Shown: positions 7,824 to 40,675 of the stretch, piece after piece
Layout of the letters: each line of letters begins with the position of its first letter
Numbering within the stretch: position 1 is the first letter of the stretch
Assembly (NCBI GenBank): GCA_964524955.1
Contig: CAZGEP010000004.1
Location: forward strand, 3,627 to 67,626
Direction: 5' to 3'
From: an uncultured Planctomycetota bacterium
Lineage (GTDB): Bacteria > Planctomycetota > CAZGEP01
DNA: 64,000 bases
Notes under the pieces: model-generated
What the model saw: only the letters and a program-made list of their open reading frames with translations
What the model was told of the DNA's origin: nothing
Databases searched by the model: none
Made by a program: the position numbers and the translations under genes

Positions 7824-7927
7824 TCACTTTTTCGGAACAGGTCCGTATACTGTCCTGAGATGATATCGTGGTCTCTGCCGGCAGAAGAAACACATCGGAT
7901 TTCTTCCACGCATATAGACGGAGCAAA

Positions 7928-26738: not shown

Positions 26739-28184
26739 ATGACATCCTGGTCAATGATTTTTGGAATCTTACTGATACTGACATTGCCGATATATGGTCT
26801 GTGGAGTATCGTTGGCGCACTCAGTAGTTTTCACCTTGAAAAATCGTATAAACTGGATATCATCAAAAAAACATGCAATTTTTTGAAGGCACTCAAGCCG
26901 TTGAAAACAACTCATACAATTATTACCGGTGACAGTCGCCAGATGAATCTGGTAGAGGATCAATCCGTTCAGCTTGTCATTACATCACCGCCCTATTGGC
27001 AACTCAAAGATTACGGAACTGAAAACCAGATCGGTTTTCATGAAGATTATGAAACGTATATCAACAATCTGAATATAGTCTGGAAAGAATGTTACCGTGT
27101 GCTGGAAAACGGCTGCCGTTTATGTATAAATATCGGTGATCAGTTTGCCAGAGCAGTTTATTACGGCAGATATAAAATCATTCCAATTCGTACGGAAATC
27201 ATCAAGTTTTGTGAAAGCATTGGATTTGATTACATGGGAGCCGTTATCTGGCAGAAACACACCACAACAAATACAACCGGTGGTGCCTCCTTAATGGGGA
27301 GCTACCCAACACCTCGAAACGGTATCGTATCTATTGATTATGAATTTATTCTCCTATTCAAGAAACTTGGAAAACCTTTAAGGGTCAAAAAAGAGGTCAA
27401 GAATGAGTCAAAGTTGACCAAGGAAGAATGGAAAGAATATTTTTCCGGACACTGGACATTCGGCGGCATACGGCAGAACGGCCACATTGCCATGTTTCCT
27501 GAAGAACTGCCCAAACGATTGATTAAAATGTTCGCTTTTGTCGGAGAAACGGTCCTAGATCCATTTATGGGAAGCGGAACCACAAGCCTTGCAGCCAGAA
27601 ATCTGAACAGGAATTCGATTGGGTATGAAGTCAACCCGGAATTCATTACAGTAGCCAAAGAAAAACTGAATATCGACCAGGGTGATTTTTTCGGCACAGA
27701 GTATCTCTTCAAGAACGACCATTTTAGTCTGAATGTCAACAAAGAGTTGTCTTCTTTGCCGTATCGTTTCAGAGATCCCCACCAACTGGACAAAAAGACT
27801 GACCCAAGAATGATGCAGTTCGGTTCAAAAATAAACAATTCTGCATCTGAAAGAGAAACCTATTATTCTGTAAAAGAGATCATCAGCCCGGAACTGATTA
27901 AATTAAGCAATGGAATTATCATACGCCTGATCGGTGTAAAAGAGAAACCAAATGTCAACGGAAAAGCAACACAATTCCTTAAAACTAAAACAAAGGGACA
28001 GAGGGTTTTCTTAAAATATGACACCCAGAAACACGATGAAGACAATCACTTGATGTGCTATTTGTATTTAAAAAATAAAACATTTATCAATGCCCATCTG
28101 ATAAAAACCGGCCTTGTAGAACCGGATTGTTCGATGAGCTTCAAATACAAAGATAAATTTATGCGCCTGGGAGTGGGAGAATAA
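26739..28184 (+). CDS. Beta-class DNA methyltransferase (N4-C or N6-A) fused to a C-terminal staphylococcal-nuclease (SNase)-like domain
   Basis: Motif IV 'TSPPY' precedes motif I 'DPFMGSGTT'. C-terminal 'IIRLIGV...GKATQFL...VFLKYD...NAHLIKTGLVEPD' is SNase-like. AT-rich. Confidence 0.7.
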   Translation: MTSWSMIFGILLILTLPIYGLWSIVGALSSFHLEKSYKLDIIKKTCNFLKALKPLKTTHTIITGDSRQMNLVEDQSVQLVITSPPYWQLKDYGTENQIGFHEDYETYINNLNIVWKECYRVLENGCRLCINIGDQFARAVYYGRYKIIPIRTEIIKFCESIGFDYMGAVIWQKHTTTNTTGGASLMGSYPTPRNGIVSIDYEFILLFKKLGKPLRVKKEVKNESKLTKEEWKEYFSGHWTFGGIRQNGHIAMFPEELPKRLIKMFAFVGETVLDPFMGSGTTSLAARNLNRNSIGYEVNPEFITVAKEKLNIDQGDFFGTEYLFKNDHFSLNVNKELSSLPYRFRDPHQLDKKTDPRMMQFGSKINNSASERETYYSVKEIISPELIKLSNGIIIRLIGVKEKPNVNGKATQFLKTKTKGQRVFLKYDTQKHDEDNHLMCYLYLKNKTFINAHLIKTGLVEPDCSMSFKYKDKFMRLGVGE

Positions 28185-28820
28185 ATGGCCAAGGAATGGA
28201 TATTAAACAGCGCAATGAACCGTTTCCAGCTGAATTTCAAACGAAATGTTGGCCCTACATCAGAAAGCATACGGGCGTGCGAGCCAAAGACCCTGGAAGA
28301 GTGGAAAGCGTATTATTTCCGGGAAGTTCGGAGCAAAGACCACATCATTGATCTTGGCAAGAAACTTTACATCAAGATTACGGAAGTCATTCAAGCCGAA
28401 GTCGAGCAAATAACAGAGCAAGACTGCATAGACTATATGCTGAAGATGGTCGTTGAGAGAACATTTGATGGATACATCACTGAAATCAAAACGATATACG
28501 GACAAATAGAAAAAGAACTGGGATGCAAGGTAAAACCTTCATCGGATGAATGGGACAGAAAGTTCAACGTGGATTTCTTTATTAAAGTAAACGACTATTA
28601 TCTTGGCCTTCAGATCAAACCGGTAAACGAGGGCATTCAGCTCTCACAAATATATAAAGAAAAAGATCTTCAGAAAACAAGCCATCAGAAATTCACTGAT
28701 CAATTCGGCGGTCAAGTCTTTTATATCTTTTCTACCAAAGTCAGTGGAAATAAAATTATTAAAAATCCGGAAGTTATTGACGAAATCCGAAACGAAATCA
28801 CCCGGCTTAACCATGCCTGA
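28185..28820 (+). CDS. Putative type II restriction endonuclease (PD-(D/E)xK-like), partner of the upstream methyltransferase
   Basis: The ATG abuts the methyltransferase stop (TAAATG). AT-rich. Candidate 'E-x-D...D-x12-Q-I-K' catalytic arrangement. No other family recognised. Confidence 0.4.
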   Translation: MAKEWILNSAMNRFQLNFKRNVGPTSESIRACEPKTLEEWKAYYFREVRSKDHIIDLGKKLYIKITEVIQAEVEQITEQDCIDYMLKMVVERTFDGYITEIKTIYGQIEKELGCKVKPSSDEWDRKFNVDFFIKVNDYYLGLQIKPVNEGIQLSQIYKEKDLQKTSHQKFTDQFGGQVFYIFSTKVSGNKIIKNPEVIDEIRNEITRLNHA

Positions 28821-29685
28821 TCTCTTTGCCCGAATGATTCAGACCGCTTCATATTCAACAGAGCAGCTTGAGCCGGATGCACGTGAAGACATCACCTCAT
28901 TCATCCTCAACTGCATGAATCCGGACGGCGGTTTTCAGGGGCGTTCTGAGGAAAGCGACCTCTATTACACCTGCTTTGCGCTCATGTCCCTTCATGCGCT
29001 TGGAAAAACAATGCCCGAAGACACAACCGACTGGCTCATCAGCCAGGCCGCGAAGCCGCCAACAGATCGGGTCCACCTCGCCTCACTGATCCTATGCCTT
29101 GAAATAACCGGACAGGCTCAGAAGGCAAACCTGCTGCGAAAAAAACTCCAGCCATCCTGTGCGGACATTCTACACTGCAAAATATCAGGCAGCAAAAACA
29201 CTGAAAACCTGTACAGCATATTCCTGTCCATGCTCTGTATGAAACCCCCGGAAGATACCGTACCGAACGCTCAAAGACTGACCCGGGAGCTTGAGACGTT
29301 TCAAGTCCGAAACAAAACCTATGCCAACGAACCCGGCAGCAGCCAGTGCAGTACGCCGGCCACAGCCGCGGCCCTGGCAATTCTTTTCGCACTCAACATT
29401 ACGCCGGATCCCCGGACAATCAACCACCTGATAACCATGCATGAGAAGACCGGTGGATTCAGGGCCGCGGAACTCACCCCACTTCCTGACCTGCTCTCCA
29501 CCGCCACAGCCCTCTTCTCGATCAGTCTCCACCAGAGCATACCGCAAGCTATCAAGAAGCCGTGCCTGACGTTTATCCAGGACTGCTGGCTGAAAAACGG
29601 GGGCTTCTGCGGCAGCCTTGTGGATGATATGCCGGACTGCGAGTATACCTTTTACGGACTGCTGGCGCCGGGATGCGTTGGTTAA
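28813..29685 (+). CDS. Prenyltransferase/squalene-oxidase-repeat (PFTB-like alpha-alpha toroid) protein, cytoplasmic
   Basis: Repeated 'GGF' and aromatic motifs. The start overlaps the REase stop codon (ATGCCTGA). Confidence 0.5.
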   Translation: MPDLFARMIQTASYSTEQLEPDAREDITSFILNCMNPDGGFQGRSEESDLYYTCFALMSLHALGKTMPEDTTDWLISQAAKPPTDRVHLASLILCLEITGQAQKANLLRKKLQPSCADILHCKISGSKNTENLYSIFLSMLCMKPPEDTVPNAQRLTRELETFQVRNKTYANEPGSSQCSTPATAAALAILFALNITPDPRTINHLITMHEKTGGFRAAELTPLPDLLSTATALFSISLHQSIPQAIKKPCLTFIQDCWLKNGGFCGSLVDDMPDCEYTFYGLLAPGCVG

Positions 29686-30552
29686 AGACAGTCGATGGTC
29701 AATGGTCTATGGCTAATTGCGCTGAAAACCTCCGAATTGACAGGATAAAGAATGACAAAGTATGCATCGCACGGTCGCCGCAGGCATGCAGTTGATCCGT
29801 CCGCTGACGGAAGACACAGGGGCACGGAGAAAAACAACAGCTAAAGATTTTCAACAACGAAATAGACGAAATAAACGAAAAAACTGCATTGAAAACAGAA
29901 TTATGGGAACGCTGAAGATGCAAGAGACGCTATCAAAAGATCAGCACTGCCACAGCCGGTCATGGCCCGGCGCGTCCGGGGCATCCAGGAGCAGCCGACA
30001 CCGATTACGTCCTTATCCGTATATCCTGTTTATCCTGTAAATCCTGTCCAATTCTCTTTCTTTTTGTTGTTCTGAACTAAGACAAAATAGTAGACGGGAT
30101 TGACGGGTCGGCGGAGCCTTGTTTTTGATCCGCCTAGGCGGAATTGACAGGATGAGAAAAGAACAGAACTCTCCTTGTTCTGCGATTTCAGACTGTCAAT
30201 AAAAAGATGAATCCGCTCATCAAGCGTTTTCTCCCGGTTCTGGCTGGAAAGCAAAATAAACTTACTCGCCCAGATTGCGTGAAACTTAATAGTAGACGGT
30301 TTTACCAGTTTTTTATCCTCTAGATACTGCTGAAATTCTTTCAGAACAGCCCTAATATATTCGTTTCTCCTTAATAGGCAAAGTAAATGCTATTAAAATA
30401 TAGTCATACTATCATACATTCCAATTCGAATATTTCAAAAAAATAATTTTTTATTTGACACGGTTCAGTGGTTTTATAAAATTTACCGTTGTCAGAAATC
30501 ATAACTGTAACCTATACACACTAAATTGTTCCCGTCGCGCTGCGCGCGACGG

Positions 30553-30709
30553 GAACGGCGAGTTGAGGGCTTCGCCCCTCGCCCGATTAGTTCCCTGCGC
30601 GCTGATTCGCGCGCCGAGAACAAATCGTTCGAGGGGTCCATTGGCCTATCAACTCCGGGCGCTGAAGCGCCCTCCGATGATAGGTCAACGGCCCCTCAAC
30701 TCGCCGTTC
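30553..30709. repeat. GC-rich, multi-hairpin palindromic element (MITE/REP-like) with about 17-bp terminal inverted repeats
   Basis: Left TIR 'gaacggcgagttgaggg' and right TIR 'ccctcaactcgccgttc'. Internal hairpins include 'gagggcttcgcccctc', 'gcgcgctgattcgcgcgc' and 'gggcgctgaagcgccc'. Confidence 0.5.
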
Positions 30710-30720
30710 GAAGCAAGAGA

Positions 30721-30942
30721 ATGAAGAAACTGAATCGCGAAGAATTGATCATCCTTGTTCAACGCATCATGGATGTCGATGGCACAGAAGAAGAGATCGA
30801 CCAGATGATGGACACATTGGAGGCCAACGTGATCCACCCGGAAGTCTCCGATCTGATATTCTACTCAAAGAAGGAAGACCCGGCCGCAGAGGAGATCGTG
30901 GACGAAGCACTGGCTTACAAGCCCATCATTCTTGGGCCGTGA
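30721..30942 (+). CDS. Colicin/pyocin DNase immunity protein (Im7/Im9 family)-like small protein
   Basis: 73 aa. '...HPEVSDLIFYSKKEDP..EEIV' parallels Im9 '...[23 protein letters not shown]'. Confidence 0.55.
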   Translation: MKKLNREELIILVQRIMDVDGTEEEIDQMMDTLEANVIHPEVSDLIFYSKKEDPAAEEIVDEALAYKPIILGP

Positions 30943-31112
30943 GCGAGACTTCGAACAAGGTCGGTGGAGCGTACGGCTAAAGCCGCCGCTCACCGACGGC
31001 GTTCGCCGGAAAAAGACAGAGATTCCGCAGATTTTCTACGATTTCCGTAAAGCTATGGACCCGAAGATGGGTCTATACTCATAGCAAAGGAAATTTCTGC
31101 AAGGACAACGAC

Positions 31113-32066
31113 ATGAAAGACTTGGCGAAAACCATACAAAACGCCTGTTCTGGCGACCTATACTCATTCGGCAGACTTGTCACCTATTATCAGGATATGG
31201 CATACGCTTATGCGTACTCGCTTTTAGGCGACTTCCATCTTGCCCAAGACGCTACCCAGGAAGCATTTATTGATTCCTATCGGCACCTATCATCGCTTCG
31301 GGTTCCCGAAGCGTTCCCCGGGTGGTTTCGACGGATTGTGCTCAAGCACTGTAATCGACTCACCAGAGGCAAGAGCATACAAACCCTGCCGCTTGACGTG
31401 GCGGGAGAGCAGGAGAGTCCCGAACTGCGGCCCGACGAGGTGCTGATTCGGAGTGAAATACGCTCTTCCGTTCTTGGCGCACTACGGGCGTTGTCTCAGG
31501 ATCAACGGACCGTAGCCTCACTTTACTATATCAACGGCTATTCCCAAGCCGAGGTAGCCGATTTTCTCGATGTGCCGAAAACAACTGTAAACAATCGCCT
31601 TCATGCCGCAAGGCGACGACTAAAGGAAAGGATGGTCACCATGGTGCAGCAAGAACTGACGAACAATGCTCTGCCAAAGGACGAGTTCTGCCACGTAGTG
31701 CTAGACAAGCTCTCGAAGCAACAGGCGGGCCTGATGGCCGGCAGTCCAGTCAACAAGTTTGCCGATCTTGTCATTACCCAAGCCCTGCACGACAAGTGCA
31801 AGCAGATGAGCCTATCCCTCGATGAGAATGGCACCGTCTGCCTGAGTGCACTGTATGATCGCGAATGGAAGGAATGGGCTCCGCCTCCAGCTCGCATCAT
31901 CCCTGCGCTTCTTTCGTTTTTGGCTGCCGCTGCAACATCGGATTCAAACTCCGACGAGTTGGCTGCAGAACTTCCTTTTGTTGCGTCAGATGGTCAGAAG
32001 TACATCGCAACCATCGAGGTGAAGAACATTACCGTCGGGATCACGTTGCCGGAAACGGGGCACTGA
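31113..32066 (+). CDS. ECF-type RNA polymerase sigma factor with a roughly 140-aa C-terminal extension
   Basis: Region 2 'DATQEAFIDSYR' and region 4 'LSQDQRTVASLYYINGYSQAEVADFLDVPKTTVNNRLHAARRRLKE'. Extra C-terminal domain of unknown fold. Confidence 0.7.
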   Translation: MKDLAKTIQNACSGDLYSFGRLVTYYQDMAYAYAYSLLGDFHLAQDATQEAFIDSYRHLSSLRVPEAFPGWFRRIVLKHCNRLTRGKSIQTLPLDVAGEQESPELRPDEVLIRSEIRSSVLGALRALSQDQRTVASLYYINGYSQAEVADFLDVPKTTVNNRLHAARRRLKERMVTMVQQELTNNALPKDEFCHVVLDKLSKQQAGLMAGSPVNKFADLVITQALHDKCKQMSLSLDENGTVCLSALYDREWKEWAPPPARIIPALLSFLAAAATSDSNSDELAAELPFVASDGQKYIATIEVKNITVGITLPETGH

Positions 32067-32166
32067 TTGATCCGGCGAACAACCACATTCAGCATATTGT
32101 CGCTGGCGCGCCAGATGCTGATGTGAAGCGTTATGTGCAAGAAGACAAAAGGAGAAATCAAAGAAT

Positions 32167-32757
32167 ATGAGCGTAGAATTACTTTCTGACTTTATCAGAG
32201 AAAAATATGAGGTGCATGAATGGAAACATGCGTGTGCCATATTGAAAGAGGATTTTACGAACGAATGGAATGATATTATATCTGTATTGGAAAGTTTTCG
32301 CCTAAAAAAGAGTTGGATTACAACTCCAGGAGGCAGGAAATCAAAGGTTTCTGCATATATTGATGGCTATTTATATGATAGGGATTGGGTTGAAAAAGAA
32401 TTTGAGACGAAAGTGACTGTTGATGATCATACAATGGACACACCAACTCATAAAATCGACTGTTTTAAAAATAGAGTGGCTCTTGAAATTGAGTGGAACA
32501 ACAAGGACCCTTTTTATGACCGAGACCTAAATAATTTCAGATTACTGTTTGATTTACGTGCAATTAGCGTTGGAGTGATCATTACACGCTGTGAAGATCT
32601 TCAAGATATTTTCAATGATTTGGGAAGAGGGGCATCTTATGGTGCATCTACAACGCATATGGGGAAATTACTCCCAAGGATTGAAGGTGGAAGTGGAGCT
32701 GGTTGTCCACTCGTTGTTTTTGGAATATCAAAATCACTTTATGTGGAGGATTGCTAA
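32167..32757 (+). CDS. Type II restriction endonuclease of the BglII/BamHI/BstYI family
   Basis: 'KIDCFKNRVALEIEWNNKDPFYDRDLNNFRLL' aligns with BglII 'DIDFGKRDTLVEVQFSNYPFLLNNTVRSELF' (D-x8-E-x-E/Q). RBS 'aaaggag'. AT-rich. Confidence 0.6.
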   Translation: MSVELLSDFIREKYEVHEWKHACAILKEDFTNEWNDIISVLESFRLKKSWITTPGGRKSKVSAYIDGYLYDRDWVEKEFETKVTVDDHTMDTPTHKIDCFKNRVALEIEWNNKDPFYDRDLNNFRLLFDLRAISVGVIITRCEDLQDIFNDLGRGASYGASTTHMGKLLPRIEGGSGAGCPLVVFGISKSLYVEDC

Positions 32758-32759
32758 TT

Positions 32760-33410
32760 ATGAACGCATCTGATGATCTGTTAAATTTTATTGGAAAAAG
32801 AAAATTTTCAACAATACTTGCTGACCCTCCATGGCAGTTTCAAAACAGGACGGGCAAAATGGCACCAGAGCATAAAAGGTTATCTCGGTACCCTACGATG
32901 AAATTACAAGAAATTAAAGATTTGCCGGTTGAAGCTATTGCGGAAGACCGAGCACATCTTTATTTGTGGGTTCCAAATGCACTTTTATCTGAAGGCATGC
33001 AAGTTATGGAGAATTGGGGATTTAAATATAAAACAAATCTAATATGGTACAAGATTAGAAAAGACGGCGGCCCCGATAGAAGAGGTGTTGGATTTTATTT
33101 TAGAAATGTGACTGAAATAATTCTTTTTGGTGTTCGGGGCAAGAATATCAGAACACTACAACCCGGAAGAAGTCAGGAAAACATTATATCATCAAGAAAA
33201 AGAGAACACAGTAGAAAACCAGATGAACAATATGATTTAATTGAATCTTGTAGTTGGGGACCTTTCTTAGAACTTTTTGGTAGAGGGCCAAGAGAAGGCT
33301 GGACAACTTGGGGCAATCAGGCAGAAGAATATACCCCTGATTGGGAAACATATTCAAACCATTCTAATGGGGATAGAATAATACCGTTTAAGAAAGTCAG
33401 GACAGGTTAA
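32760..33410 (+). CDS. MT-A70-family N6-adenine DNA methyltransferase
   Basis: 'ILADPPWQF' (DPPW) motif. RBS 'ggagga'. Starts 3 nt after the REase stop. Confidence 0.7.
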   Translation: MNASDDLLNFIGKRKFSTILADPPWQFQNRTGKMAPEHKRLSRYPTMKLQEIKDLPVEAIAEDRAHLYLWVPNALLSEGMQVMENWGFKYKTNLIWYKIRKDGGPDRRGVGFYFRNVTEIILFGVRGKNIRTLQPGRSQENIISSRKREHSRKPDEQYDLIESCSWGPFLELFGRGPREGWTTWGNQAEEYTPDWETYSNHSNGDRIIPFKKVRTG

Positions 33411-33423
33411 TCACTAGAATCGT

Positions 33424-34269
33424 ATGCATTATTATACGCAAAACTATAACAATGTGATGGATTTTGAGCGATCATGCATGGTTGCAGAAGAAGCTAATCC
33501 ACCATTCTATTATGATGTTTCTAATGGAATAAAACTATATAATGCAGACACTTTTTCATTTTTCAAAAATATACCAGATGGTTGTGTTGATCTAATATTT
33601 GCCGATCCTCCGTATTTCCTGTCTTCAGGAGGTATAACTTGCCATAGTGGTAAAATGGAAAATGTAAATAAGGGGGAATGGGATAAATCAAAACCAATTG
33701 AGGAAATTCACAATTATAACAAACAGTGGCTATCAGAGTGCAATCGTATTTTGAAAAAGCATGCTACTATTTGGGTTTGTGGAACATTTCACAATATTTT
33801 TTCTGTCGGATTCGCTTTGCAAGAATTAGATTTTAAAATATTAAACAATATAGTGTGGGAAAAGAAAGATCCTCCGCCGAATTTAACAAAAAAATACTTT
33901 GTCCATGCTTCTGAACATCTTCTTTGGGCATCAAAAACAAAATATTCTAAGCATATCTTTCATCAAGATGCTCTCAAAGAAGTTTCAAACGGGGAACCAA
34001 TGAAGTCTGTATGGAGGGATATATGGAAATTGCCATCAGTAGATCATTTAGAGAAAGTTTTTGGTAAACACCCAACACAAAAACCAGAAGAGGTTATTCG
34101 GAGAGCAGTGCTTGCATCAAGTAATATTGGGAGTCTGGTTTTCGATCCATTTTGTGGTAGTGGGACAACAGGAGTTGTCTGTAGAAGAATGAACAGAAGG
34201 TTTGTTGGCGTTGATAATAATTTAAAGTACTTGGATATCGCAAAAAAAAGAATAGCATCAGTAAAATGA
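33424..34269 (+). CDS. Beta-class DNA methyltransferase (N4-cytosine or N6-adenine; DPPY)
   Basis: Motif IV 'FADPPY' precedes motif I 'DPFCGSGTTG'. Confidence 0.7.
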   Translation: MHYYTQNYNNVMDFERSCMVAEEANPPFYYDVSNGIKLYNADTFSFFKNIPDGCVDLIFADPPYFLSSGGITCHSGKMENVNKGEWDKSKPIEEIHNYNKQWLSECNRILKKHATIWVCGTFHNIFSVGFALQELDFKILNNIVWEKKDPPPNLTKKYFVHASEHLLWASKTKYSKHIFHQDALKEVSNGEPMKSVWRDIWKLPSVDHLEKVFGKHPTQKPEEVIRRAVLASSNIGSLVFDPFCGSGTTGVVCRRMNRRFVGVDNNLKYLDIAKKRIASVK

Positions 34270-34367
34270 AAAATAGAGAGAAATTGCACATAACAAATCA
34301 CTGCACTGGATTTTTACTCCGCTGCGCTCCGTAAAAACCAGTGAGTTCAGTCGTTGGCGCCACTGCA

Positions 34368-35801
34368 ATGAATAAAAACAAGCCAAATATCATTCTGTTC
34401 ATCACGGAACAACACCGCGGTGACTGTCTCGGCATAGAAAACCACCCCGTGTTGATGACCCCGAACATGGACGCCATCGCGGGCGCGGGCGTCCGTTTCA
34501 CCCGGGCCTACTCCAACTGTCCGACCTGCATTGCCGCGCGACGCACGATTCTGTCCGGCCAGTTCCCCCCCACCCACGGTATGGTCGGATATCAGGAGGA
34601 TGTACCCTGGGAAATCGAGGACACCCTTCCTGCGGTCCTGTCGAAAGCGGGTTACGAAACCGCCTGGATCGGACGCAGCATGCACCAGTACCCGATCGAC
34701 AAACCGTTCGGGTTCGAGCACTACGTCCGAAGCGGGCTCGACGCGGCGAGCCCCTACATGCGTTTCTTTCGCGAACGCCGACCCGACGACTGGGAAGCCC
34801 AATTCGGCACCGGCATCAGGAACAACGATTGGACCTCGCGGCCCTGGCATTTGGACGAGGACCTGCATCACACGAGCTGGACGGTCCATGAAGCGTTGCG
34901 CTTTCTCAGAGACCGCGATACGACGCGGCCCTTCTTCCTGGTGGTTTCGTTCCTTGCCGCCCATCCGCCCCTGGTGCCGCCCGCGTTCTACCTGGAGCGC
35001 TACATCCGCACCGGAGTTCCTGATCCCGTGATCGGCGACTGGGCCGAGCCGCCTCCCAATGGCGGCAAGGGGCTGGATATCGGCGGACACCGGGTGGACC
35101 TGAAAGGGGAAGCCCTGCTATGCGCGCGAGCCGGCTACTACGGGCTAATCAACCACATGGACGATCACATCCGCCGCCTCCTTAACCCCGTGGCCGGAGT
35201 GGACCGCATGACGGGCAACAACACGGCCGTCATGCTGACAAGCGACCATGGCGAGATGCTTGGCGACCACTATCGGTGGCACAAGGTCGTCCCCTACGAG
35301 CCGTCCGCGCGCATCCCGATGCTGCTGCGTGCTCCGGCACACTTCGGAATCGAGCCCGGAACCGTGATCGACCGGCCCGTTTGCCTGACGGACGTCATGC
35401 CGACGTTGCTCGACCTGGCGGGCACGCCCGTGCCGCCAGGCGTAGAGGGACTGAGCCTCTTGCCGCTGCTACGCGGCGAAGAGACATCCTGGCGCGACTA
35501 TCTTCACATCGAACATGCGCCCATGCACCATGCGCTGACGGATGGTCGGGAAAAATATGTCTGGTTCGTCACCGACGGCCGCGAGCAGCTCTTCTGCCTG
35601 GACAACGATCCCTCGGAGTGCCATGATCTGGCCGGTTGTCCCGCGGCAGCGGAACGCCTATCACACTGGCGGGGACGAATGATTCAGGAACTGGACGGCC
35701 GCCCGGAGGGTTTCTGTGATAGCGGAACCCTCATTCCCGGCAGTGAGTACAAACCTGTGTGCTCGCGCGCCAACAAGCCGGATGCTCGCGACGGCTCATA
35801 G
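34368..35801 (+). CDS. Sulfatase, no signal peptide, variant FGly motif C-I-A-A-R
   Basis: 'MNKNKPNIILFITEQHRGD' and 'CPTCIAARRTILSGQ'. High GC. Confidence 0.75.
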   Translation: MNKNKPNIILFITEQHRGDCLGIENHPVLMTPNMDAIAGAGVRFTRAYSNCPTCIAARRTILSGQFPPTHGMVGYQEDVPWEIEDTLPAVLSKAGYETAWIGRSMHQYPIDKPFGFEHYVRSGLDAASPYMRFFRERRPDDWEAQFGTGIRNNDWTSRPWHLDEDLHHTSWTVHEALRFLRDRDTTRPFFLVVSFLAAHPPLVPPAFYLERYIRTGVPDPVIGDWAEPPPNGGKGLDIGGHRVDLKGEALLCARAGYYGLINHMDDHIRRLLNPVAGVDRMTGNNTAVMLTSDHGEMLGDHYRWHKVVPYEPSARIPMLLRAPAHFGIEPGTVIDRPVCLTDVMPTLLDLAGTPVPPGVEGLSLLPLLRGEETSWRDYLHIEHAPMHHALTDGREKYVWFVTDGREQLFCLDNDPSECHDLAGCPAAAERLSHWRGRMIQELDGRPEGFCDSGTLIPGSEYKPVCSRANKPDARDGS

Positions 35802-35839
35802 CCGCGCGAGATCCGCGACGTTCGCTCAACTGAAGAAAC

Positions 35840-37159
35840 ATGGAGATGTGCATGACACATAAGAATATCCTCCTAATTACGACAGATCAGCAGAGTTCCA
35901 CCATGCTAAGCTGCAGCGGTAATCCTGACCTGCACACACCACACATTGATACATTGGCGTCGGATGGTGTGCGCTTCGAAAAAGCATATGCAGCCCAACC
36001 GCTTTGTATTCCACAACGCTGTTCTTGGTACACGGGCCTCATGCCACACCGCCACGGAATTACTTTCAATGTGACAAACAAAGACATCCAGGCAGAATCA
36101 ATGATGGGGCAGATATTTCGGGACGCGGGCTACGCAACCGGATATTCCGGAAAGTGGCACATCAATACTTCGCCTGAAAACAAACCATTCCACGGATTTG
36201 AGTGGATGAACAATATCCGGTGCAACGGTGCAGACGCGGGGATTGCGGCTGACTTTGAAACGTTTCTCAGTATGAATTGTGACCGACCGTTCATCTTTTC
36301 AGCCTCATTCAATAATCCCCATAACATATGTGAAGCCGCTCGCGGAGGCCCATTTCCCGACGGCGAACCGGGCTTGCCAGAGAATACGAACCAGTTGCCT
36401 CGACTTCCGGAGAATTTCGGCGTGCCCGAAAGGGAACCTTCCGTGATCCGCGAAGTGCAAAATATGTTGAGAATAAGTAACTATCCAACGAGCAACTGGG
36501 ACGAGATGCGATGGCGTCTGCACCGCTGGTTCTACTGCCGACTTACGGAAATTGTAGACAGGCGCATTGGCGGGCTTCTTGAAACCCTGCAACAAAGAGG
36601 TCTGAGCGACAACACGCTTATTGTCTTTACTAGTGATCATGGAGACGGCAACGCCCACCACCAATGGAACCAGAAACAGGTATTGTATGATGAATCGGCG
36701 AGGGTGCCCTTTATTGTGAGCCGGCCAGGTAGCAGAATGAATCGTCTCGACGGAAAACAGCTCGTCAATACAGGGATTGATCTCATTCCTACATTATGCG
36801 GGCTTGCCGAGATTGACTGTCCGCCTCACCTGGATGGTCATGATTGGTCCGAGGCGTTGTCAAACGACGATCTTCCATCACGGCGAGACCATGTGATTAT
36901 CGAGACGGAATTTGGAACGTTCGGAAAGCCATTGGGGTATCGGGGACGGGCGGTGCGCACTGGGCGCTATAAATACATGGTTTATGATCGGGGTGAAAAC
37001 CGTGAGTATTTTTGCGATATGAATAACGACCCCGGCGAGACTATCAACCTTGCCGGCATCCCTGACCATCAAGAGGAATTGCTTAGTCACCGCGCCCTTC
37101 TGCGCGACTATATAGCCAAAACCGACGACATATTTCCTGTTGAGATGCTACCGGCTTAA
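35840..37159 (+). CDS. Sulfatase, no signal peptide (C-I-P-Q-R)
   Basis: 'NILLITTDQQ', 'CIPQRCSWYTG' and 'GKWHI'. Confidence 0.8.
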   Translation: MEMCMTHKNILLITTDQQSSTMLSCSGNPDLHTPHIDTLASDGVRFEKAYAAQPLCIPQRCSWYTGLMPHRHGITFNVTNKDIQAESMMGQIFRDAGYATGYSGKWHINTSPENKPFHGFEWMNNIRCNGADAGIAADFETFLSMNCDRPFIFSASFNNPHNICEAARGGPFPDGEPGLPENTNQLPRLPENFGVPEREPSVIREVQNMLRISNYPTSNWDEMRWRLHRWFYCRLTEIVDRRIGGLLETLQQRGLSDNTLIVFTSDHGDGNAHHQWNQKQVLYDESARVPFIVSRPGSRMNRLDGKQLVNTGIDLIPTLCGLAEIDCPPHLDGHDWSEALSNDDLPSRRDHVIIETEFGTFGKPLGYRGRAVRTGRYKYMVYDRGENREYFCDMNNDPGETINLAGIPDHQEELLSHRALLRDYIAKTDDIFPVEMLPA

Positions 37160-37274
37160 CTGTTGTCCTTGATCATAGGCAAATTAACGAAGAGGGAAAT
37201 AGCAGGAGCGAACAAGCCGTTGCTCGCGACGGCTTATAGCCGCACGAGAACGGCGAGTTCGGAGACAAGACAAT

Positions 37275-38396
37275 ATGCTAAAATATTTATTGGCCTCACT
37301 GCTTCTGTGCTTCTCTCTTGTCTATGGCAAGGAGATCTCGCAGTGGCAGAGGAACAAGCGCAGCCTTCTGACAAACTTCAACAACATGTATCAGCCGTGT
37401 GTCGTAGAAACTGGGGGCAAGTATCCCTATAAGATGTGGTTTTTCGGCTGGGCGGCTGCCAGGACGAACCCCGGTTGGCCGGGGTGCGATGCGATATTTC
37501 ACGCACGTTCAAAAGATCTGAAGACCTGGGAAGTCTACAGCCAGGACGGGAAATGGGATACCACCATGAATCCAAAGGCCTGGGTGCCTGTCCTTCACGC
37601 CAGCGACCGCTGGTACGATGCCTGGCATGTCGGCGACCCGTCCGTTGTGCTCAGAGACGGCAAGTTGTTCATGGCCTACAGCGCCACATCCAAGCACTTC
37701 AGTAAGCGTGAAGGCTATCCCGCCACTATGGTGCAGTGTGTCATGGGGGCGGTATCCGAAGATGGTATTCACTGGAAAAAAACCCAGCAGCCTCTCCTGA
37801 TTCGCGCTGGTGACACCGCCAACCCTGAGCCCGAACAGGAACGGATCGGCGATTTCCACCGCCCATGCCTGCTCTGGGATAAAGGGAAATGGCGACTCTG
37901 GTTTGATTACTGGTTGCCCGGCAAGGGGGTCTGCATGGGCTACGCAGAGAACAAAGGGGATTTTGCGGCCGCAGGCGGTTTCAAAATCCAGAACGACCTT
38001 ACGCAACCGCTGATTGAGGGCTGGCCGAACCCTGACATCATCCGTATCGGTGAGACCTACCACAGTTTTTCCGATGCCCCTGGATATCCTGGTGAATCGG
38101 GGTGGAAGGGACGACAGCTCCGCGAAGCAGTTTCGAAAGACGGTATCACCTGGGAACTGCGCGACTTTATTCCTCCAGACGAGGACACCGATGCTAATCA
38201 CGTTCCACAGGCCTTTACCACGACCCTTGATGGCAAGCGCTGGCTCTATATCTTCTATGCCACCCAGATTGGTAACGGGCTAAACGATGGGAGGTACCAC
38301 TTTGAGTACAACCGCATACGGGCGATGCGACGACCAATCGACAACTCCGAACAATCTCCTGCAGGCGACAGCCTAAAGGCCGCGCCTGAGGAGTAG
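37275..38396 (+). CDS. Secreted glycoside hydrolase, 5-bladed beta-propeller type (GH43/GH117/GH130-like)
   Basis: Signal peptide. 'WHVGDPSVVLRDGKLFMAYSA' matches the GH43-like propeller motif. Confidence 0.45.
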   Translation: MLKYLLASLLLCFSLVYGKEISQWQRNKRSLLTNFNNMYQPCVVETGGKYPYKMWFFGWAAARTNPGWPGCDAIFHARSKDLKTWEVYSQDGKWDTTMNPKAWVPVLHASDRWYDAWHVGDPSVVLRDGKLFMAYSATSKHFSKREGYPATMVQCVMGAVSEDGIHWKKTQQPLLIRAGDTANPEPEQERIGDFHRPCLLWDKGKWRLWFDYWLPGKGVCMGYAENKGDFAAAGGFKIQNDLTQPLIEGWPNPDIIRIGETYHSFSDAPGYPGESGWKGRQLREAVSKDGITWELRDFIPPDEDTDANHVPQAFTTTLDGKRWLYIFYATQIGNGLNDGRYHFEYNRIRAMRRPIDNSEQSPAGDSLKAAPEE

Positions 38397-38418
38397 CGTT
38401 CGAACAAAAGGAGCCACT

Positions 38419-40167
38419 ATGAGGAACTCACAATTGGAATTGGATCTTTCCAGAATCGCTTTCAGCCGTTATGAAAGCAATCTCGCGATTTGCGTTTGCG
38501 GCCAATCGAAAGCGCTGTGGCTACGTCACATCTATGGCGGCAGAGCAACAAATCTATTCCGCCTGGATGTTATGGGCTTCTCGGGCATTACAAATCCAAC
38601 GGTTCGTGCCGTTCCCGGGTTAATGTGGTTGTCCGACACTCATGGCCGAATCGAGATCGTGATGCCGGAACCAAACACGATCCGCATCCGCAGTCATAGG
38701 ATGAATCTGCACCTTGTCGGCTCGGATTCACGTCGGTGTGATTTGATGATTCCGGCAGCCGACGATCAATGGCGATGCATTATGAGCAGAGCAAAACTCC
38801 TGTTCACGCCGATTTCCGGGACCATGAAGGTAGAAGCTCCTTGGATGCCAGCGAAGGGCACGAAGCAAAAGCATCATGGCACCCATCCGATCCATGTTAC
38901 GATTGATGGTGATTCTGATGAATGGGAGTTTCAGATCAACACCTATGAGAGCGAGATAAACCCTCCGGTTATCCGTAGCCGTTTCGCCGAAGCGCACCGA
39001 CAGAGCAAAGAGTCCTTCGCCTTTTGGCTCAGGAATACAACTTCTGTGCCGGAACGGTATCAGCCGGCTCGCGAATTGGCGGCCTATGTCGGTTGGTCGG
39101 CTGTCGTTCCGGCCGCCGGGAACTACCATGCGCCATCGATGCTCATGAGCAAAAACTGGATGGTGAATACCTGGAACTGGGATAACTATATCAACGCTTG
39201 GGCGAGTGTCTACCGCGATCCGGATTTTGCCTGGGACCAGTTTATGTTGCACATCCGGCATCAGCATCCGACTGGTGGTCTGGGCGATGGCATCAACGAG
39301 CAAAGCATCGGTTGGTCCTACACCAAGCCCCCTGTGCATGGATGGATCCTGCGACGGATGGCGGAAGCCAACCCCGCCATCGACCGCACGCGTATAGCTC
39401 AGGTGTATGAGCCAATATGTCGATGGACGGAGTGGTGGTTTCGCTATCGCGATGACGATGATGACGGCATCTGCCAGTATCACCACGGTAACGACAGCGG
39501 ATGGGATGATGCCACGGCATTTGACATCGGCTGTCCCAATGAGGCGCCGGACCTCAATGCGCTTCTGATCCTGCAGATGGATGCGCTCGGCGAATTCGCA
39601 CAATGCCTCGGTAAACATGACGAGGCAGCGGTTTGGGGCAACCGCTCACGTGAAATGCTGGAACGCTTCGTGGAACACAGTTGGCGCGAAGGACGGTTCG
39701 CCGCCATGGTCAGCGGGAGCCATGCCTATGATCCCGGGAACCAGTGTTTGTTGAGCTATATCCCCTTGGTACTCGGGAGCCGATTGCCGAAGGCAATTCG
39801 GAAAGAGATGATTTGTGGCCTGATGCGGCAGGGAGGATTTCTAACAGAATGGGGGCTGGCCACGGAATCAGTTGACAGCCCGGACTACCTGTCTTGTGGC
39901 TACTGGCGTGGATCGATTTGGCCACCGCCTATGTTGATGATCGTGGACGGCTTACACGATGCCGGGGAGAATGAGCTTTCGGAGGACCTTGCCGAGCGCT
40001 TTTGCCGATTGGTGGCCACACACGGCTTCGGTGAGAACCACGATGCGCTCACTGGCGAGATTCATTACGACCCGGCATACACGTGGTCAGCGAGTGTGTT
40101 TCAGCTGTTCGCACACTTGTATCTGCATGACAGAACAAAAGAACAAGAATCAAGTTCTCCTGGTTGA
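38419..40167 (+). CDS. Cytoplasmic (alpha/alpha)6-barrel glycoside hydrolase (GH63/GH37/GH15-like)
   Basis: Trp-rich 'NTWNWDNYINAW' and 'GNDSGWDDATAFD' motifs typical of alpha-alpha-toroid glycosidases. No signal peptide. Confidence 0.4.
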   Translation: MRNSQLELDLSRIAFSRYESNLAICVCGQSKALWLRHIYGGRATNLFRLDVMGFSGITNPTVRAVPGLMWLSDTHGRIEIVMPEPNTIRIRSHRMNLHLVGSDSRRCDLMIPAADDQWRCIMSRAKLLFTPISGTMKVEAPWMPAKGTKQKHHGTHPIHVTIDGDSDEWEFQINTYESEINPPVIRSRFAEAHRQSKESFAFWLRNTTSVPERYQPARELAAYVGWSAVVPAAGNYHAPSMLMSKNWMVNTWNWDNYINAWASVYRDPDFAWDQFMLHIRHQHPTGGLGDGINEQSIGWSYTKPPVHGWILRRMAEANPAIDRTRIAQVYEPICRWTEWWFRYRDDDDDGICQYHHGNDSGWDDATAFDIGCPNEAPDLNALLILQMDALGEFAQCLGKHDEAAVWGNRSREMLERFVEHSWREGRFAAMVSGSHAYDPGNQCLLSYIPLVLGSRLPKAIRKEMICGLMRQGGFLTEWGLATESVDSPDYLSCGYWRGSIWPPPMLMIVDGLHDAGENELSEDLAERFCRLVATHGFGENHDALTGEIHYDPAYTWSASVFQLFAHLYLHDRTKEQESSSPG

Positions 40168-40267
40168 GCGTAGAGATGAAAGTGATCGTTCGAACCATCA
40201 GGTGCAGGCGACGCTTGACAGCGCGCCTCAACTCGCCGTTGGGCGAACCCCAAGAAGAGTTTTATAA

Positions 40268-40570
40268 ATGGCTTTGATTAAGTGTCCTGAATGCAATAAT
40301 GACGTATCGACCTCGGCAGCGTCGTGTCCCAAATGTGGCGCACCTATAGCGTCACAAACTAGCCGCATCACCGAACCAACAATACCGAGGGGAAAAGTAC
40401 AATGCGGGCATTGCCGGGCAATCGTAAAACCTCAAAAAATGGAAGCTGGATGTAGCTCACTGATCATAGCTATACTACTTCTCTGCCTTGGTATTATCCC
40501 TGGAGTAATCTATATCATTTGGGAAAGTAGCAGAAAACAATGTCCAAACTGCAAACTGCCAATAAAGTGA
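40268..40570 (+). CDS. Zinc-ribbon domain protein with a C-terminal TM helix
   Basis: 'CPECNN...CPKCG' and 'CGHC...CPNC', plus a hydrophobic stretch 'LIIAILLLCLGIIPGVIYIIW'. Confidence 0.5.
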   Translation: MALIKCPECNNDVSTSAASCPKCGAPIASQTSRITEPTIPRGKVQCGHCRAIVKPQKMEAGCSSLIIAILLLCLGIIPGVIYIIWESSRKQCPNCKLPIK

Positions 40571-40582
40571 ACGACGCCCAAC

Positions 40583-40611
40583 AACGGTTGAGGGCTTCGC
40601 CCCTCGCCGTT
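40583..40611 (+). repeat. GC-rich hairpin 'aacggttgagggcttcgcccctcgccgtt', a copy of the repeat family at 30563..30583
   Basis: The 21-mer 'ttgagggcttcgcccctcgcc' is identical at 30563 and 40588. Lies 13 nt after the zinc-ribbon gene stop. Confidence 0.6.
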
Positions 40612-40675
40612 GGACCAGCCATATCGATAGCCAGACCGAATCTGTGGCGCAGGGCGCGAAGCGAGTATTCAGAGT

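What the first reader, a model, noticed from the sequence alone, without database searches (positions are those of the whole stretch)
32167..34269. BglII/BamHI-family restriction enzyme with two methyltransferases (MT-A70 N6A plus beta-class DPPY) as a second low-GC R-M cassette
The REase shows a striking match to the BglII active-site strand. 'KIDCFKNRVALEIEWNNKDPFY...LNNFRLL' aligns with BglII 'DIDFGKRDTLVEVQFSNYPFLLNNTVRSELF'. This implies a GATC-core palindromic target such as AGATCT, GGATCC or RGATCY.

Two methyltransferases of different classes follow in tight array (3-nt and 13-nt gaps), and no controller protein is present. The cassette is AT-rich and sits between a GC-richer ECF-sigma gene and a very GC-rich sulfatase.
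Basis: partly seen in the sequence, partly recalled or inferred. Interest (0 to 1): 0.55.

Follow-up and report, generated by a model that had tools for sequence, protein, structure and literature searches.

The report
Restriction-modification operon on an integron cassette
The three genes are an intact restriction-modification system (a BglII-like DNA cutter plus two adenine methylases) that sits in the genome as one mobile integron gene cassette; this is a known kind of defence module, not a new one.

Summary

Three things were missed:
- The conserved core is R+M1. That pair is adjacent in 81 of 84 related loci, and R relatives turned up in 568 stretches of the one-genome-per-species collection at 66-90% identity. 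M2 occurs only in a small sublineage.
- M2 is not CcrM-like in specificity. Its relatives at 58-73% identity occupy the second-methylase (DpnA) position of DpnII-type GATC systems, or follow AlwI-family enzymes. Together with the GATC-core structural neighbours of R, this points to a GATC-containing target blocked by adenine methylation. That is inferred, not shown.
- The operon is one integron gene cassette (32131-34353) in an array of at least nine attC sites (30615-40615). Each attC's left box is the exact reverse complement of the preceding attC's right box, in 8 of 8 cases. This explains the GC mosaic.

All the components are known kinds, so the finding is ordinary to moderately interesting.

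The parts
32074..32136 (+). attC site of the preceding (ECF-sigma) cassette. Its right box GTTATGT (32130-32136) contains the G|TT crossover that forms the left boundary of the R-M cassette.
   Evidence: It passes the strict attC template scan. Its left box GGCGAAC is the exact reverse complement of the right box GTTCGCC of the attC before it. Nucleotide homology to L093-L096 starts at 32130.
32131..34353 (+). The R-M1-M2 integron gene cassette, 2,223 bp, running from the TT of GTTATGT to the G of GTTGGCG.
   Evidence: blastn homology to L093-L096 spans 32130-34355 at 82.5% identity and stops there. Flanks are unrelated beyond these points. The chain rule holds on both sides.
32167..32757 (+). 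R: type II restriction endonuclease of the BglII/BstYI/BamHI fold, 196 aa. Putative catalytic residues are D98, E107 and E109.
32760..33410 (+). M1: MT-A70-family N6-adenine DNA methyltransferase, 216 aa, DPPW motif. It is the conserved cognate partner of R.
   Evidence: Pfam PF05063 E=7e-33. PADLOC MTase_II, 292 bits. Adjacent to R in 81 of 84 loci. Best solved relatives are Tetrahymena MTA1 and METTL3.
33424..34269 (+). M2: beta-class N6-adenine DNA methyltransferase, 281 aa, DPPY motif, of the DpnA-like subgroup. It is an accessory second methylase.
   Evidence: Pfam PF01555 E=2e-57. Homologues at 58-61% identity sit between a D12-class methylase and a DpnII-family REase; homologues at 71-73% follow AlwI-family REases. 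47% identical to the second methylase of LlaDCHI on pSRQ700. Its recognition loops match that group and not CcrM.
34288..34359 (+). attC site of the R-M cassette: ACATAAC-AAATC-ACT-G-CACTGG-A-TTTTTAC...GTAAAAA-CCAGTG-AGT-TCAGTC-GTTGGCG. Two extra unpaired bases lie on the 5' arm.
   Evidence: It passes the strict template scan. It is 94-95% conserved after M2 in L093-L097. Its left box ACATAAC is the reverse complement of GTTATGT at the cassette's left end, and its right box GTTGGCG is the reverse complement of the next attC's left box CGCCAAC.

Best explanation
The finding is a complete, apparently functional type II restriction-modification operon carried as a single integron gene cassette.

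- **R** is a small PD-(D/E)XK endonuclease of the BglII/BstYI/BamHI fold. By analogy with that family it should act as a homodimer and cut a short palindrome.
- **M1**, an MT-A70-family enzyme with the adenine-type DPPW motif, is its conserved cognate methylase. It protects host DNA by N6-adenine methylation of the same site.
- **M2** is a second N6-adenine methylase, added in one sublineage. It belongs to the DpnA-like group of beta-class enzymes that accompany GATC-type systems. It most likely methylates G-A-T-C and gives redundant cover, or cover of single-stranded incoming DNA.
- **Target**: the site therefore most likely contains GATC, and cutting is blocked by adenine methylation. The exact length and flanks are unknown.
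- **Mobility**: the three genes are transcribed R-M1-M2 with 2- and 13-nt spacers and no controller gene. The 2.2-kb unit ends in its own attC site and was inserted by integron-integrase crossover at G|TT into an array of at least nine attC sites. That accounts for its foreign low GC content between GC-richer neighbours.

**Shown here**: the family, fold and motif assignments; gene order and its conservation; the attC structure, the array and the chain rule.

**Inferred**: enzymatic activity, the GATC-containing target, the single-strand role of M2, and expression.
For: **Families and fold**
- Pfam, PADLOC and structural assignments.
- Catalytic D-X8-E-X-E motif aligned to BstYI and BglII.

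**Core pair**
- tblastn finds R+M1 adjacent in 81 of 84 loci. A close M2 is present only in L001, L002 and L008 of that set.
- R is 80-90% identical in its best 120 database hits, and relatives were found in 568 stretches of the one-genome-per-species collection.
- Iyer et al. already describe MT-A70 methylases of BglII-type R-M systems (PMC4738411).

**M2**
- Homologue contexts: BglII-family REase + MT-A70 + M2 (L085-87, L093-98, L101); double D12 methylase + AlwI-family REase + M2 (L088, L099-104); D12 methylase + M2 + DpnII-family REase (L089-92).
- pSRQ700 LlaDCHI has the same D12 / beta-class / DpnII-family order, with its second methylase 47% identical to M2. LlaDCHI is a GATC system related to DpnII (PMC4190342).
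- DpnA methylates single-stranded DNA (PMC3573125).
- The loops following DPPY and around PPNL..YF.H are shared with that group. The CcrM contact residues R44, P45 and R129 are not shared.
- R homologues at 50-60% identity on two plasmids pair with D12-class adenine methylases.

**Integron cassette**
- A strict attC template gives 5 hits on the + strand and 0 on the - strand, against about 0.2-0.35 per strand in 20 shuffles.
- Further sites lie at 30950, 37207, 40189 and about 40576.
- The left box of each attC is the exact reverse complement of the right box of the preceding attC in 8 of 8 junctions. Within a single site the two boxes differ at 1-4 positions.
- The homology block with L093-L096 is 32130-34355.
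- In L023 the R-M1 pair lies between textbook attCs, GCCTAAC..GTTAGGT and ACCTAAC..GTTAGGC.
- Type II restriction systems are reported as prevalent among integron defence cassettes (bioRxiv 10.1101/2024.07.02.601686).
Against: - No direct evidence of the recognition sequence exists. Palindrome over- and under-representation in 1.2 Mb of carrier loci singled out nothing (GATC O/E 0.93; many hexamers at 0.4-0.65).
- The characterised GATC-core members of this fold use N4-cytosine methylases and tolerate Dam methylation (my own knowledge). An adenine-protected member need not keep the GATC core.
- M2's GATC specificity rests on 47-73% identity and on genomic context, not on an assay.
- No integron integrase lies in the 64-kb window. 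The cassette has no room for its own promoter, so the operon might be silent here.
- Across 78 non-identical loci, a simple test for the cassette signature was not enriched over permuted controls (9 loci against a control range of 2-11). The integron context therefore applies to a subset of the family only.
Confidence: 0.65

Rival explanations
1. R+M1 is the complete R-M system. M2 is an unrelated solitary methylase with a different specificity, for example a CcrM/HinfI-like GANTC enzyme, that merely shares the cassette.
For: - The best solved match of M2 is the CcrM methylase domain (189 bits), and the best NCBIfam model is CcrM (231 bits).
- PADLOC also gives an orphan-methylase hit of 224 bits.
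- Most R+M1 loci lack M2.
Against: - The NCBIfam score is far below the CcrM cutoff of 830.
- M2 lacks CcrM's C-terminal domain.
- The CcrM base-contact residues are changed: R44 to H, P45 deleted, R129 to Y, L38 to S, L42 to T.
- In every context examined, close M2 relatives lie next to a restriction gene: BglII-family, AlwI-family or DpnII-family.
- M2 is closer to LlaDCHI-B (252 bits) than to rhizobial CcrM (about 190 bits).
Confidence: 0.15
2. The target is asymmetric or bipartite, and M1 and M2 each modify one strand or one half-site, as in type IIS systems with two methylases.
For: Two methylases of different classes sit in tight array with one nuclease. M2 relatives also occur with type IIS AlwI-family enzymes.
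Against: - R+M1 without M2 is the commonest arrangement and is conserved across phyla, so M1 alone must protect.
- All strong structural neighbours of R are homodimeric palindrome cutters (hits; their properties are my own knowledge).
- R has no extra domain (196 aa, one Pfam domain).
Confidence: 0.05
3. The block is a generic horizontally acquired island inserted by a phage, a transposon or illegitimate recombination. The flanking hairpins are ordinary terminators or REP-like repeats, not attC sites.
For: - No integrase is present in the window.
- The hairpin after M2 does not fold significantly better than shuffles (z=-1.3).
- Most R+M1 loci show no cassette signature.
Against: - The 8-of-8 exact complementarity between each left box and the preceding right box is what crossover at G|TT predicts, and is not expected of terminators.
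- All sites lie on one strand, each just after a + strand ORF. Each has AAC...GTT ends, an unpaired spacer and a one-sided extra base at a fixed position.
- The homology break falls exactly at these junctions.
Confidence: 0.07

Closest known systems
BglII / BstYI / BamHI / OkrAI restriction endonucleases (Pfam PF09195 and the BamHI-like fold)
   Different: Only 16-22% identity. The partners here are N6-adenine methylases rather than the N4-cytosine methylases of BglII, BstYI and BamHI (my own knowledge). There is no controller protein. The recognition site is unknown.
MT-A70-type methylases of BglII-like R-M systems (Iyer, Zhang and Aravind, Bioessays 2016, PMC4738411)
   Same: The R+M1 pair is exactly this association. 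M1's nearest solved relatives are the eukaryotic MT-A70 enzymes MTA1 and METTL3.
   Different: That paper gives no specificity and mentions neither a second methylase nor an integron context.
DpnII / LlaDCHI / MboI-type GATC systems with two methylases (DpnM plus DpnA)
   Same: One nuclease plus two adenine methylases. M2 belongs to the same beta-class subgroup as the second methylase of these systems: 47% identical to the pSRQ700 enzyme, and 58-61% to metagenomic DpnII-type loci.
   Different: The nuclease is BglII-fold, not the DpnII family PF04556. The primary methylase is MT-A70, not D12/Dam class. The gene order is R-M1-M2 rather than M-M-R.
Integron gene cassettes encoding defence systems (Darracq et al., bioRxiv 10.1101/2024.07.02.601686)
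   Same: A compact type II R-M system packaged as one cassette with its own attC inside a cassette array.
   Different: [quoted passage not shown] Neighbouring cassettes encode large enzymes such as sulfatases and a GH63-like hydrolase, plus an ECF sigma factor. The extra unpaired base is mostly G on the top strand, whereas my recollection of the attC of aadA7 has C there.

Membership tests
BglII/BstYI-family type II REase (PF09195) | Match to the family profile above Pfam's gathering score, over the full length | tested here: met
   156.1 bits against a cutoff of 26; profile positions 1-162 of 163.
BglII/BstYI-family type II REase (PF09195) | BamHI-like PD-(D/E)XK fold | tested here: met
BglII/BstYI-family type II REase (PF09195) | Catalytic Asp...Glu-X-Gln/Glu motif | tested here: met
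   D98, E107 and E109 align to BglII D84, E93 and Q95 and to the BstYI motif. The motif is conserved in most intact homologues in the alignment.
BglII/BstYI-family type II REase (PF09195) | Recognition of an NGATCN palindrome and cleavage before the G | not testable with these tools
   Only indirect support exists, from the fold neighbours and the M2 contexts. The palindrome-avoidance test was uninformative.
MT-A70 N6-adenine methyltransferases (PF05063) | Profile match above cutoff, and the DPPW catalytic motif | tested here: met
   114.4 bits against a cutoff of 23.9, covering 1-172 of 172 profile positions. ADPPWQF is read directly from the sequence.
Beta-class N6/N4 DNA methyltransferases, DpnA-like subgroup | PF01555 match, DPPY motif placed before the FxGxG SAM-binding motif, and shared post-DPPY and PPNL..YF.H loops | tested here: met
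   194.9 bits. Alignment with DpnII-type and LlaDCHI second methylases.
Beta-class N6/N4 DNA methyltransferases, DpnA-like subgroup | Serves as the second methylase next to a GATC-type restriction gene | tested here: met
   True of homologues at 47-73% identity. For M2 itself the partner nuclease's site is unknown.
Beta-class N6/N4 DNA methyltransferases, DpnA-like subgroup | Methylation of GATC, including on single-stranded DNA | not testable with these tools
   Requires an enzyme assay or a methylome.
CcrM/HinfI GANTC methyltransferases | NCBIfam equivalog score, C-terminal DNA-binding domain, and base-contact residues R44, P45 and R129 | tested here: not met
   230.9 bits against a cutoff of 830. 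M2 ends where the CcrM methylase domain ends. R44 to H, P45 absent, R129 to Y.
Integron gene cassette | A 3' attC site with RYYYAAC / GTTRRRY-type boxes, an unpaired spacer, a paired stem and a one-sided extra base | tested here: met
   Site at 34288-34359. The template gives 5 hits on + and 0 on -, against about 0.2-0.35 per strand in 20 shuffles. The box consensus is only partly matched (ACATAAC, GTTGGCG).
Integron gene cassette | Boundaries at G|TT, so that a cassette's left end completes its own attC (the chain rule) | tested here: met
   8 of 8 junctions are exact. The homology block is 32130-34355.
Integron gene cassette | Integron integrase and attI adjacent to the array | tested here: not met
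   tblastn with IntI1 (sequence recalled from memory) found nothing in the window. ORFs upstream have no integrase domains. The array is CALIN-like, or the integrase lies outside the window.
C-protein-controlled R-M systems | A small helix-turn-helix controller gene upstream of R | tested here: not met
   There are 30 nt between the cassette edge and the R start codon. More distant R homologues on plasmids do have one.
BclI (TGATCA, m6A) system | Nuclease homologous to R.BclI | tested here: not met
   R.BclI on pBcl1 is DUF7687/DUF7690. hhalign probability against the R profile is 0.15%.

The most novel reading that the evidence does not exclude
R is a GATC-specific (or GATC-core) endonuclease of the BglII fold that, unlike BglII, BamHI and BstYI, is blocked by adenine methylation. 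It is protected by a bacterial MT-A70 enzyme, the closest prokaryotic relative of eukaryotic METTL3/MTA1. The DpnA-like M2 was recruited because integron cassettes and their hosts receive DNA as single strands, so the cassette carries its own means of pre-protecting incoming single-stranded DNA. On this reading the system is adapted to the integron lifestyle.
Probability: 0.15. Interest if true: 0.6.

Novelty: new member of a known kind. Interest (0 to 1): 0.4.

Why it matters
- **An uncharacterised but very common enzyme.** I could find no published specificity for this R+M1 pair in the literature I could search. Yet it is one of the most widely spread and best conserved type II systems seen here: all 8000 scored candidates in the protein search matched, and relatives turned up in 568 stretches of the one-genome-per-species collection across many phyla. 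Determining its site would annotate thousands of genomes.
- **A model for DNA recognition by MT-A70 enzymes.** M1 would be a tractable bacterial model for how these enzymes recognise DNA.
- **Mobility.** The integron context offers one concrete route by which so small an R-M system could move between phyla.
- **What integrons can carry.** The array shows that cassette arrays in an uncultured lineage can hold large catabolic genes such as sulfatases.

None of this overturns current understanding.

Tried and rejected
1. **Palindrome avoidance.** I tested 1.2 Mb of carrier loci with a maximal-order Markov expectation to infer the site. Depletion is broad and no motif stands out, so the test is uninformative without non-carrier controls.
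2. **BclI analogy (TGATCA, m6A, C protein).** The controller on the Dyadobacter plasmid resembles C.BclI. I located the BclI system on pBcl1, but R.BclI is unrelated to R.
3. **M2 as a GANTC enzyme.** Rejected on the NCBIfam cutoff, the missing C-terminal domain and the changed contact residues.
4. **An integrase remnant on the minus strand at 30030-30400.** No Pfam support.
5. **Host identification through aspartate kinase.** The nearest named homologues are only 40-47% identical and taxonomically scattered.
6. **RNAalifold on a MAFFT alignment of diverse attC sites.** No consensus structure was found because the alignment is not structural, so I used a template scan with shuffle controls instead. 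I did not build a covariance model.
7. **Scan attempts.** The first free-energy scan used box-consensus filters that missed the bulged site after M2. A relaxed version timed out.
8. **Chain-rule test across 78 loci.** Not enriched over permuted controls.
9. **Other searches.** The promoter and terminator scan of the cassette found nothing above chance. phmmer of R alone against solved structures found nothing; a profile of homologues was needed.
Full report
**1. Observation**

The three ORFs exist as described, all on the + strand.

| Gene | Coordinates | Length | Pfam match |
|---|---|---|---|
| R | 32167-32757 | 196 aa | PF09195 Endonuc-BglII, E=8.2e-46, full profile length |
| M1 | 32760-33410 | 216 aa | PF05063 MT-A70, E=7e-33, motif ADPPWQF |
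| M2 | 33424-34269 | 281 aa | PF01555 N6_N4_Mtase, E=2.4e-57, motif FADPPYF |

- The ORF list starts M1 at TTG 32703. The ATG at 32760 is the start shared by homologues.
- The intergenic gaps are 2 nt (not 3) and 13 nt.
- GC is 0.33-0.40 inside the block, against 0.49-0.55 upstream and 0.55-0.66 downstream.
It places R's D98, E107, E109 and N112 opposite BglII's D84, E93, Q95 and N98.

**2. The nuclease**

- phmmer of R alone finds nothing among solved structures. A profile of 24 homologues reaches BstYI (E=7e-4) and aligns the catalytic strand.
- R is therefore a genuine member of this fold clade, with an intact D-X8-E-X-E motif.
- It is unusually conserved and widespread.
  - The best 120 database hits are 80-90% identical, from Desulfobacterota, Gamma- and Betaproteobacteria and other groups.
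  - A scan of one genome per species confirmed relatives in 568 stretches. The 80 loci kept are 66-84% identical and span many phyla.
  - At 50% clustering, 1,178 representatives match.
- The GC of the R+M1 block tracks host GC (r=0.81) but averages about 6 points lower. This suggests both long residence in hosts and horizontal transfer, under strong protein-level constraint.

**3. Core pair and accessory methylase**

- tblastn on 84 loci finds M1 immediately after R in 81 of them (convergent in three). A close M2 follows only in L001, L002 and L008.
- The unit that travels is therefore R+M1. This association was already noted by Iyer et al. as MT-A70 methylases of BglII R-M systems (PMC4738411).
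- M1's nearest solved relatives are ciliate MTA1 and human METTL3.

M2's best solved match is the CcrM methylase domain, but three things argue against CcrM-like specificity:
- It scores far below the CcrM equivalog cutoff (231 against 830 bits).
- It lacks CcrM's C-terminal domain.
- The CcrM base-contact residues described by Horton et al. (PMC6787082) are not kept: R44 to H, P45 deleted, R129 to Y.

The genomic contexts of M2 homologues are the informative evidence:

| Identity to M2 | Context |
|---|---|
| 70-82% | follows a BglII-family REase plus MT-A70 |
| 71-73% | follows a double D12-class methylase plus an AlwI-family REase |
| 58-61% | lies between a D12 (Dam-like) methylase and a DpnII-family REase, the position of DpnA |
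| 47% | second methylase of LlaDCHI on pSRQ700, same D12 / beta-class / DpnII-family order |

- LlaDCHI is a GATC system related to DpnII (PMC4190342).
- DpnA is the single-strand DNA methylase of DpnII (PMC3573125; PMC4738411).
- In an alignment, M2 shares the post-DPPY loop and the PPNL..YF.H loop with these enzymes and not with CcrM.

I conclude that M2 is a DpnA-like second methylase and most likely specific for GATC.

**4. Target**

Two independent lines point to a GATC-containing site:
- All four strong fold neighbours of R cut NGATCN (their sites are my own knowledge).
- M2's family accompanies GATC (DpnII) and AlwI-family systems. That AlwI itself recognises GGATC is my own knowledge; the AlwI Pfam family also holds enzymes with other sites.

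Further points:
- R homologues at 50-60% identity on Dyadobacter and Acinetobacter plasmids pair with a controller protein and D12-class adenine methylases.
- Both methylases here are adenine-type. BglII, BstYI and BamHI are protected by N4-cytosine methylation and tolerate Dam methylation (my own knowledge). The site is therefore unlikely to be handled like AGATCT, GGATCC or RGATCY, and R must read the adenine N6.
- Whether the site is GATC itself or a longer GATC-core palindrome cannot be decided here.
- The avoidance statistics were uninformative.
- The BclI analogy failed because R.BclI is an unrelated protein.

**5. The operon is an integron gene cassette**

Boundaries:
- Nucleotide homology with the closest relatives (L093-L096, 82.5% identity) covers window 32130-34355 and stops there.
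- The left edge is GTTATGTGCAA, shared by several loci whose upstream sequences are unrelated.
- After M2 lies a conserved 72-nt imperfect palindrome.

Template scan:
- The template was xxxxAAC, a 4-7 nt spacer, 3 bp, one extra base, 6 bp, then the mirror arm, a spacer and GTTxxxx.
- It finds 5 sites on the + strand and none on the - strand, against about 0.2-0.35 per strand in 20 shuffles.
- Looser scans and direct reading add four more sites.

| Site | Coordinates |
|---|---|
| attC0 | 30615-30712 |
| attC1 | 30950-31007 |
| attC2 | 32074-32136 |
| attC3 | 34288-34359 |
| attC4 | 35768-35826 |
| attC5 | 37207-37263 |
| attC6 | 38346-38404 |
| attC7 | 40189-40244 |
| attC8 (short) | about 40576-40615 |

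- Each site follows a + strand ORF.
- The 3-bp and 6-bp boxes differ in sequence between sites yet stay complementary (GAT/ATC, GTT/AAC, CCT/AGG, ACA/TGT, ACT/AGT).

The decisive feature is the chain rule. The left box of every attC is the exact reverse complement of the right box of the preceding attC:

| Right box of preceding attC | Left box of next attC |
|---|---|
| GTTCGAA | TTCGAAC |
| GTTCGCC | GGCGAAC |
| GTTATGT | ACATAAC |
| GTTGGCG | CGCCAAC |
| GTTCGCT | AGCGAAC |
| GTTCGGA | TCCGAAC |
| GTTCGAA | TTCGAAC |
| GTTGGGC | GCCCAAC |

- That is 8 of 8 junctions. The two boxes of any single site differ at 1-4 positions.
- This is what integrase crossover at G|TT produces.
- The R-M cassette is therefore 32131-34353.

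Its neighbours are separate cassettes:
- a colicin/pyocin-immunity-like ORF;
- the ECF sigma gene;
- two sulfatases;
- a 373-aa protein;
- a GH63-like hydrolase;
- a zinc-ribbon membrane ORF.

This explains the GC mosaic.

Further support and limits:
- The R-M cassette's attC differs from the array's predominant 57-59 nt repeat type. It resembles the repeats flanking cassettes in Spirochaetaceae loci (L003, L006), which is consistent with import from another cassette pool.
- In L093 the next attC obeys the chain rule, apart from a G to A change in the cassette's own right box. In L023 the R-M1 pair lies between textbook GCCTAAC/GTTAGGC-type sites that obey the rule exactly.
- No integrase is present in the window, so the array is CALIN-like.
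- Across all loci the cassette signature is not general.
- Type II restriction systems in integron cassettes are already documented.

**6. Mechanism**

- *Shown*: the family memberships, intact motifs, operon order, conservation, and cassette structure.
- *Inferred*:
  - R cuts an unmethylated GATC-containing palindrome.
  - M1 protects that site by m6A methylation.
  - M2 adds GATC methylation, possibly on single-stranded DNA.
  - Expression depends on read-through, because the cassette has only 30 nt upstream of R and no controller gene.

**7. Verdict**

The system is a new member of known kinds: a BglII-fold REase with an MT-A70 methylase, a DpnA-like second methylase, and a defence cassette in an integron. 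Interest is moderate. It rests on the unknown specificity of a very common enzyme and on the clean integron array.

Noticed in passing
window 30615-40615: An array of at least nine attC sites, all on the + strand, delimits cassettes. These encode a colicin/pyocin-immunity-like protein, an ECF sigma factor, the R-M operon, two sulfatases, a 373-aa protein, a GH63-like hydrolase and a zinc-ribbon membrane ORF. No integrase lies within the 64 kb. Cassette GC ranges from about 0.36 to 0.64.
   Followed up: yes
window 26739-28820: A first low-GC R-M pair. It comprises a 481-aa SPPY (N4-cytosine type) beta-class methylase with a C-terminal staphylococcal-nuclease-like domain, and an MjaI-family REase (Pfam E=2e-48). 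It is wedged between a polyprenyl synthase gene (25104-26717) and a prenyltransferase-like gene (28744-29685). No attC site was found next to it.
   Followed up: partly
L085 2439-3275, L086/L087, L101 870-1520: In these loci M1 is 90-94% identical to the window's M1 and M2 is 70-77% identical. The nuclease, however, is a longer BglII-family protein (262-278 aa) only 35% identical to R. This looks like a nuclease replacement beside an unchanged methylase.
   Followed up: partly
L088, L099-L104, L107: M2-family methylases (71-77% identical) follow an AlwI-family REase and a fused double D12-class methylase. The same accessory methylase has thus been recruited by three unrelated nuclease families.
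   Followed up: partly
window 30563-30588 and 40588-40608: The 22-nt element GTTGAGGGCTTCGCCCCTCGCC occurs at both ends of the array: just upstream of the first attC and inside the short last attC.
   Followed up: no
window 40676-43471: A 931-aa UvrD-like helicase lies directly after the array. It has PADLOC hits to GajB and to a DRT-associated helicase (E about 1e-32), so it may be another defence gene.
   Followed up: no
L003 5228-5486 / 7570-7855 and 11124-11483; the same arrangement in L006: In a Spirochaetaceae chromosome the R-M1 pair is bracketed by direct repeats of about 260 nt. It sits among repeated attC-like elements (5881-5985 and 10387-10495), with a glyoxalase cassette and a fragment 38% identical to IntI1 residues 207-329.
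   Followed up: partly
L113 3751-5795, L115 1084-3240: On Dyadobacter and Acinetobacter plasmids, R homologues (50-60% identical) pair with a helix-turn-helix controller and a D12-class methylase of about 395 aa instead of an MT-A70 enzyme. The best solved match of the Dyadobacter controller is C.BclI.
   Followed up: partly
window 33424 versus 33457; M1 homologue P0407: Two annotation issues. The public record calls M2 as 270 aa, starting at the second Met, whereas the N-terminus from 33424 is conserved in homologues. A JGI record names an M1 homologue 'N6-adenosine-specific RNA methylase IME4'.
   Followed up: partly
window 56146-57540 and the whole window: The host is a poorly sampled lineage. 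Its aspartate kinase is at most 58% identical to anything else in the database, and named hits are only 40-47% identical and taxonomically scattered. The window carries at least five sulfatase genes.
   Followed up: partly
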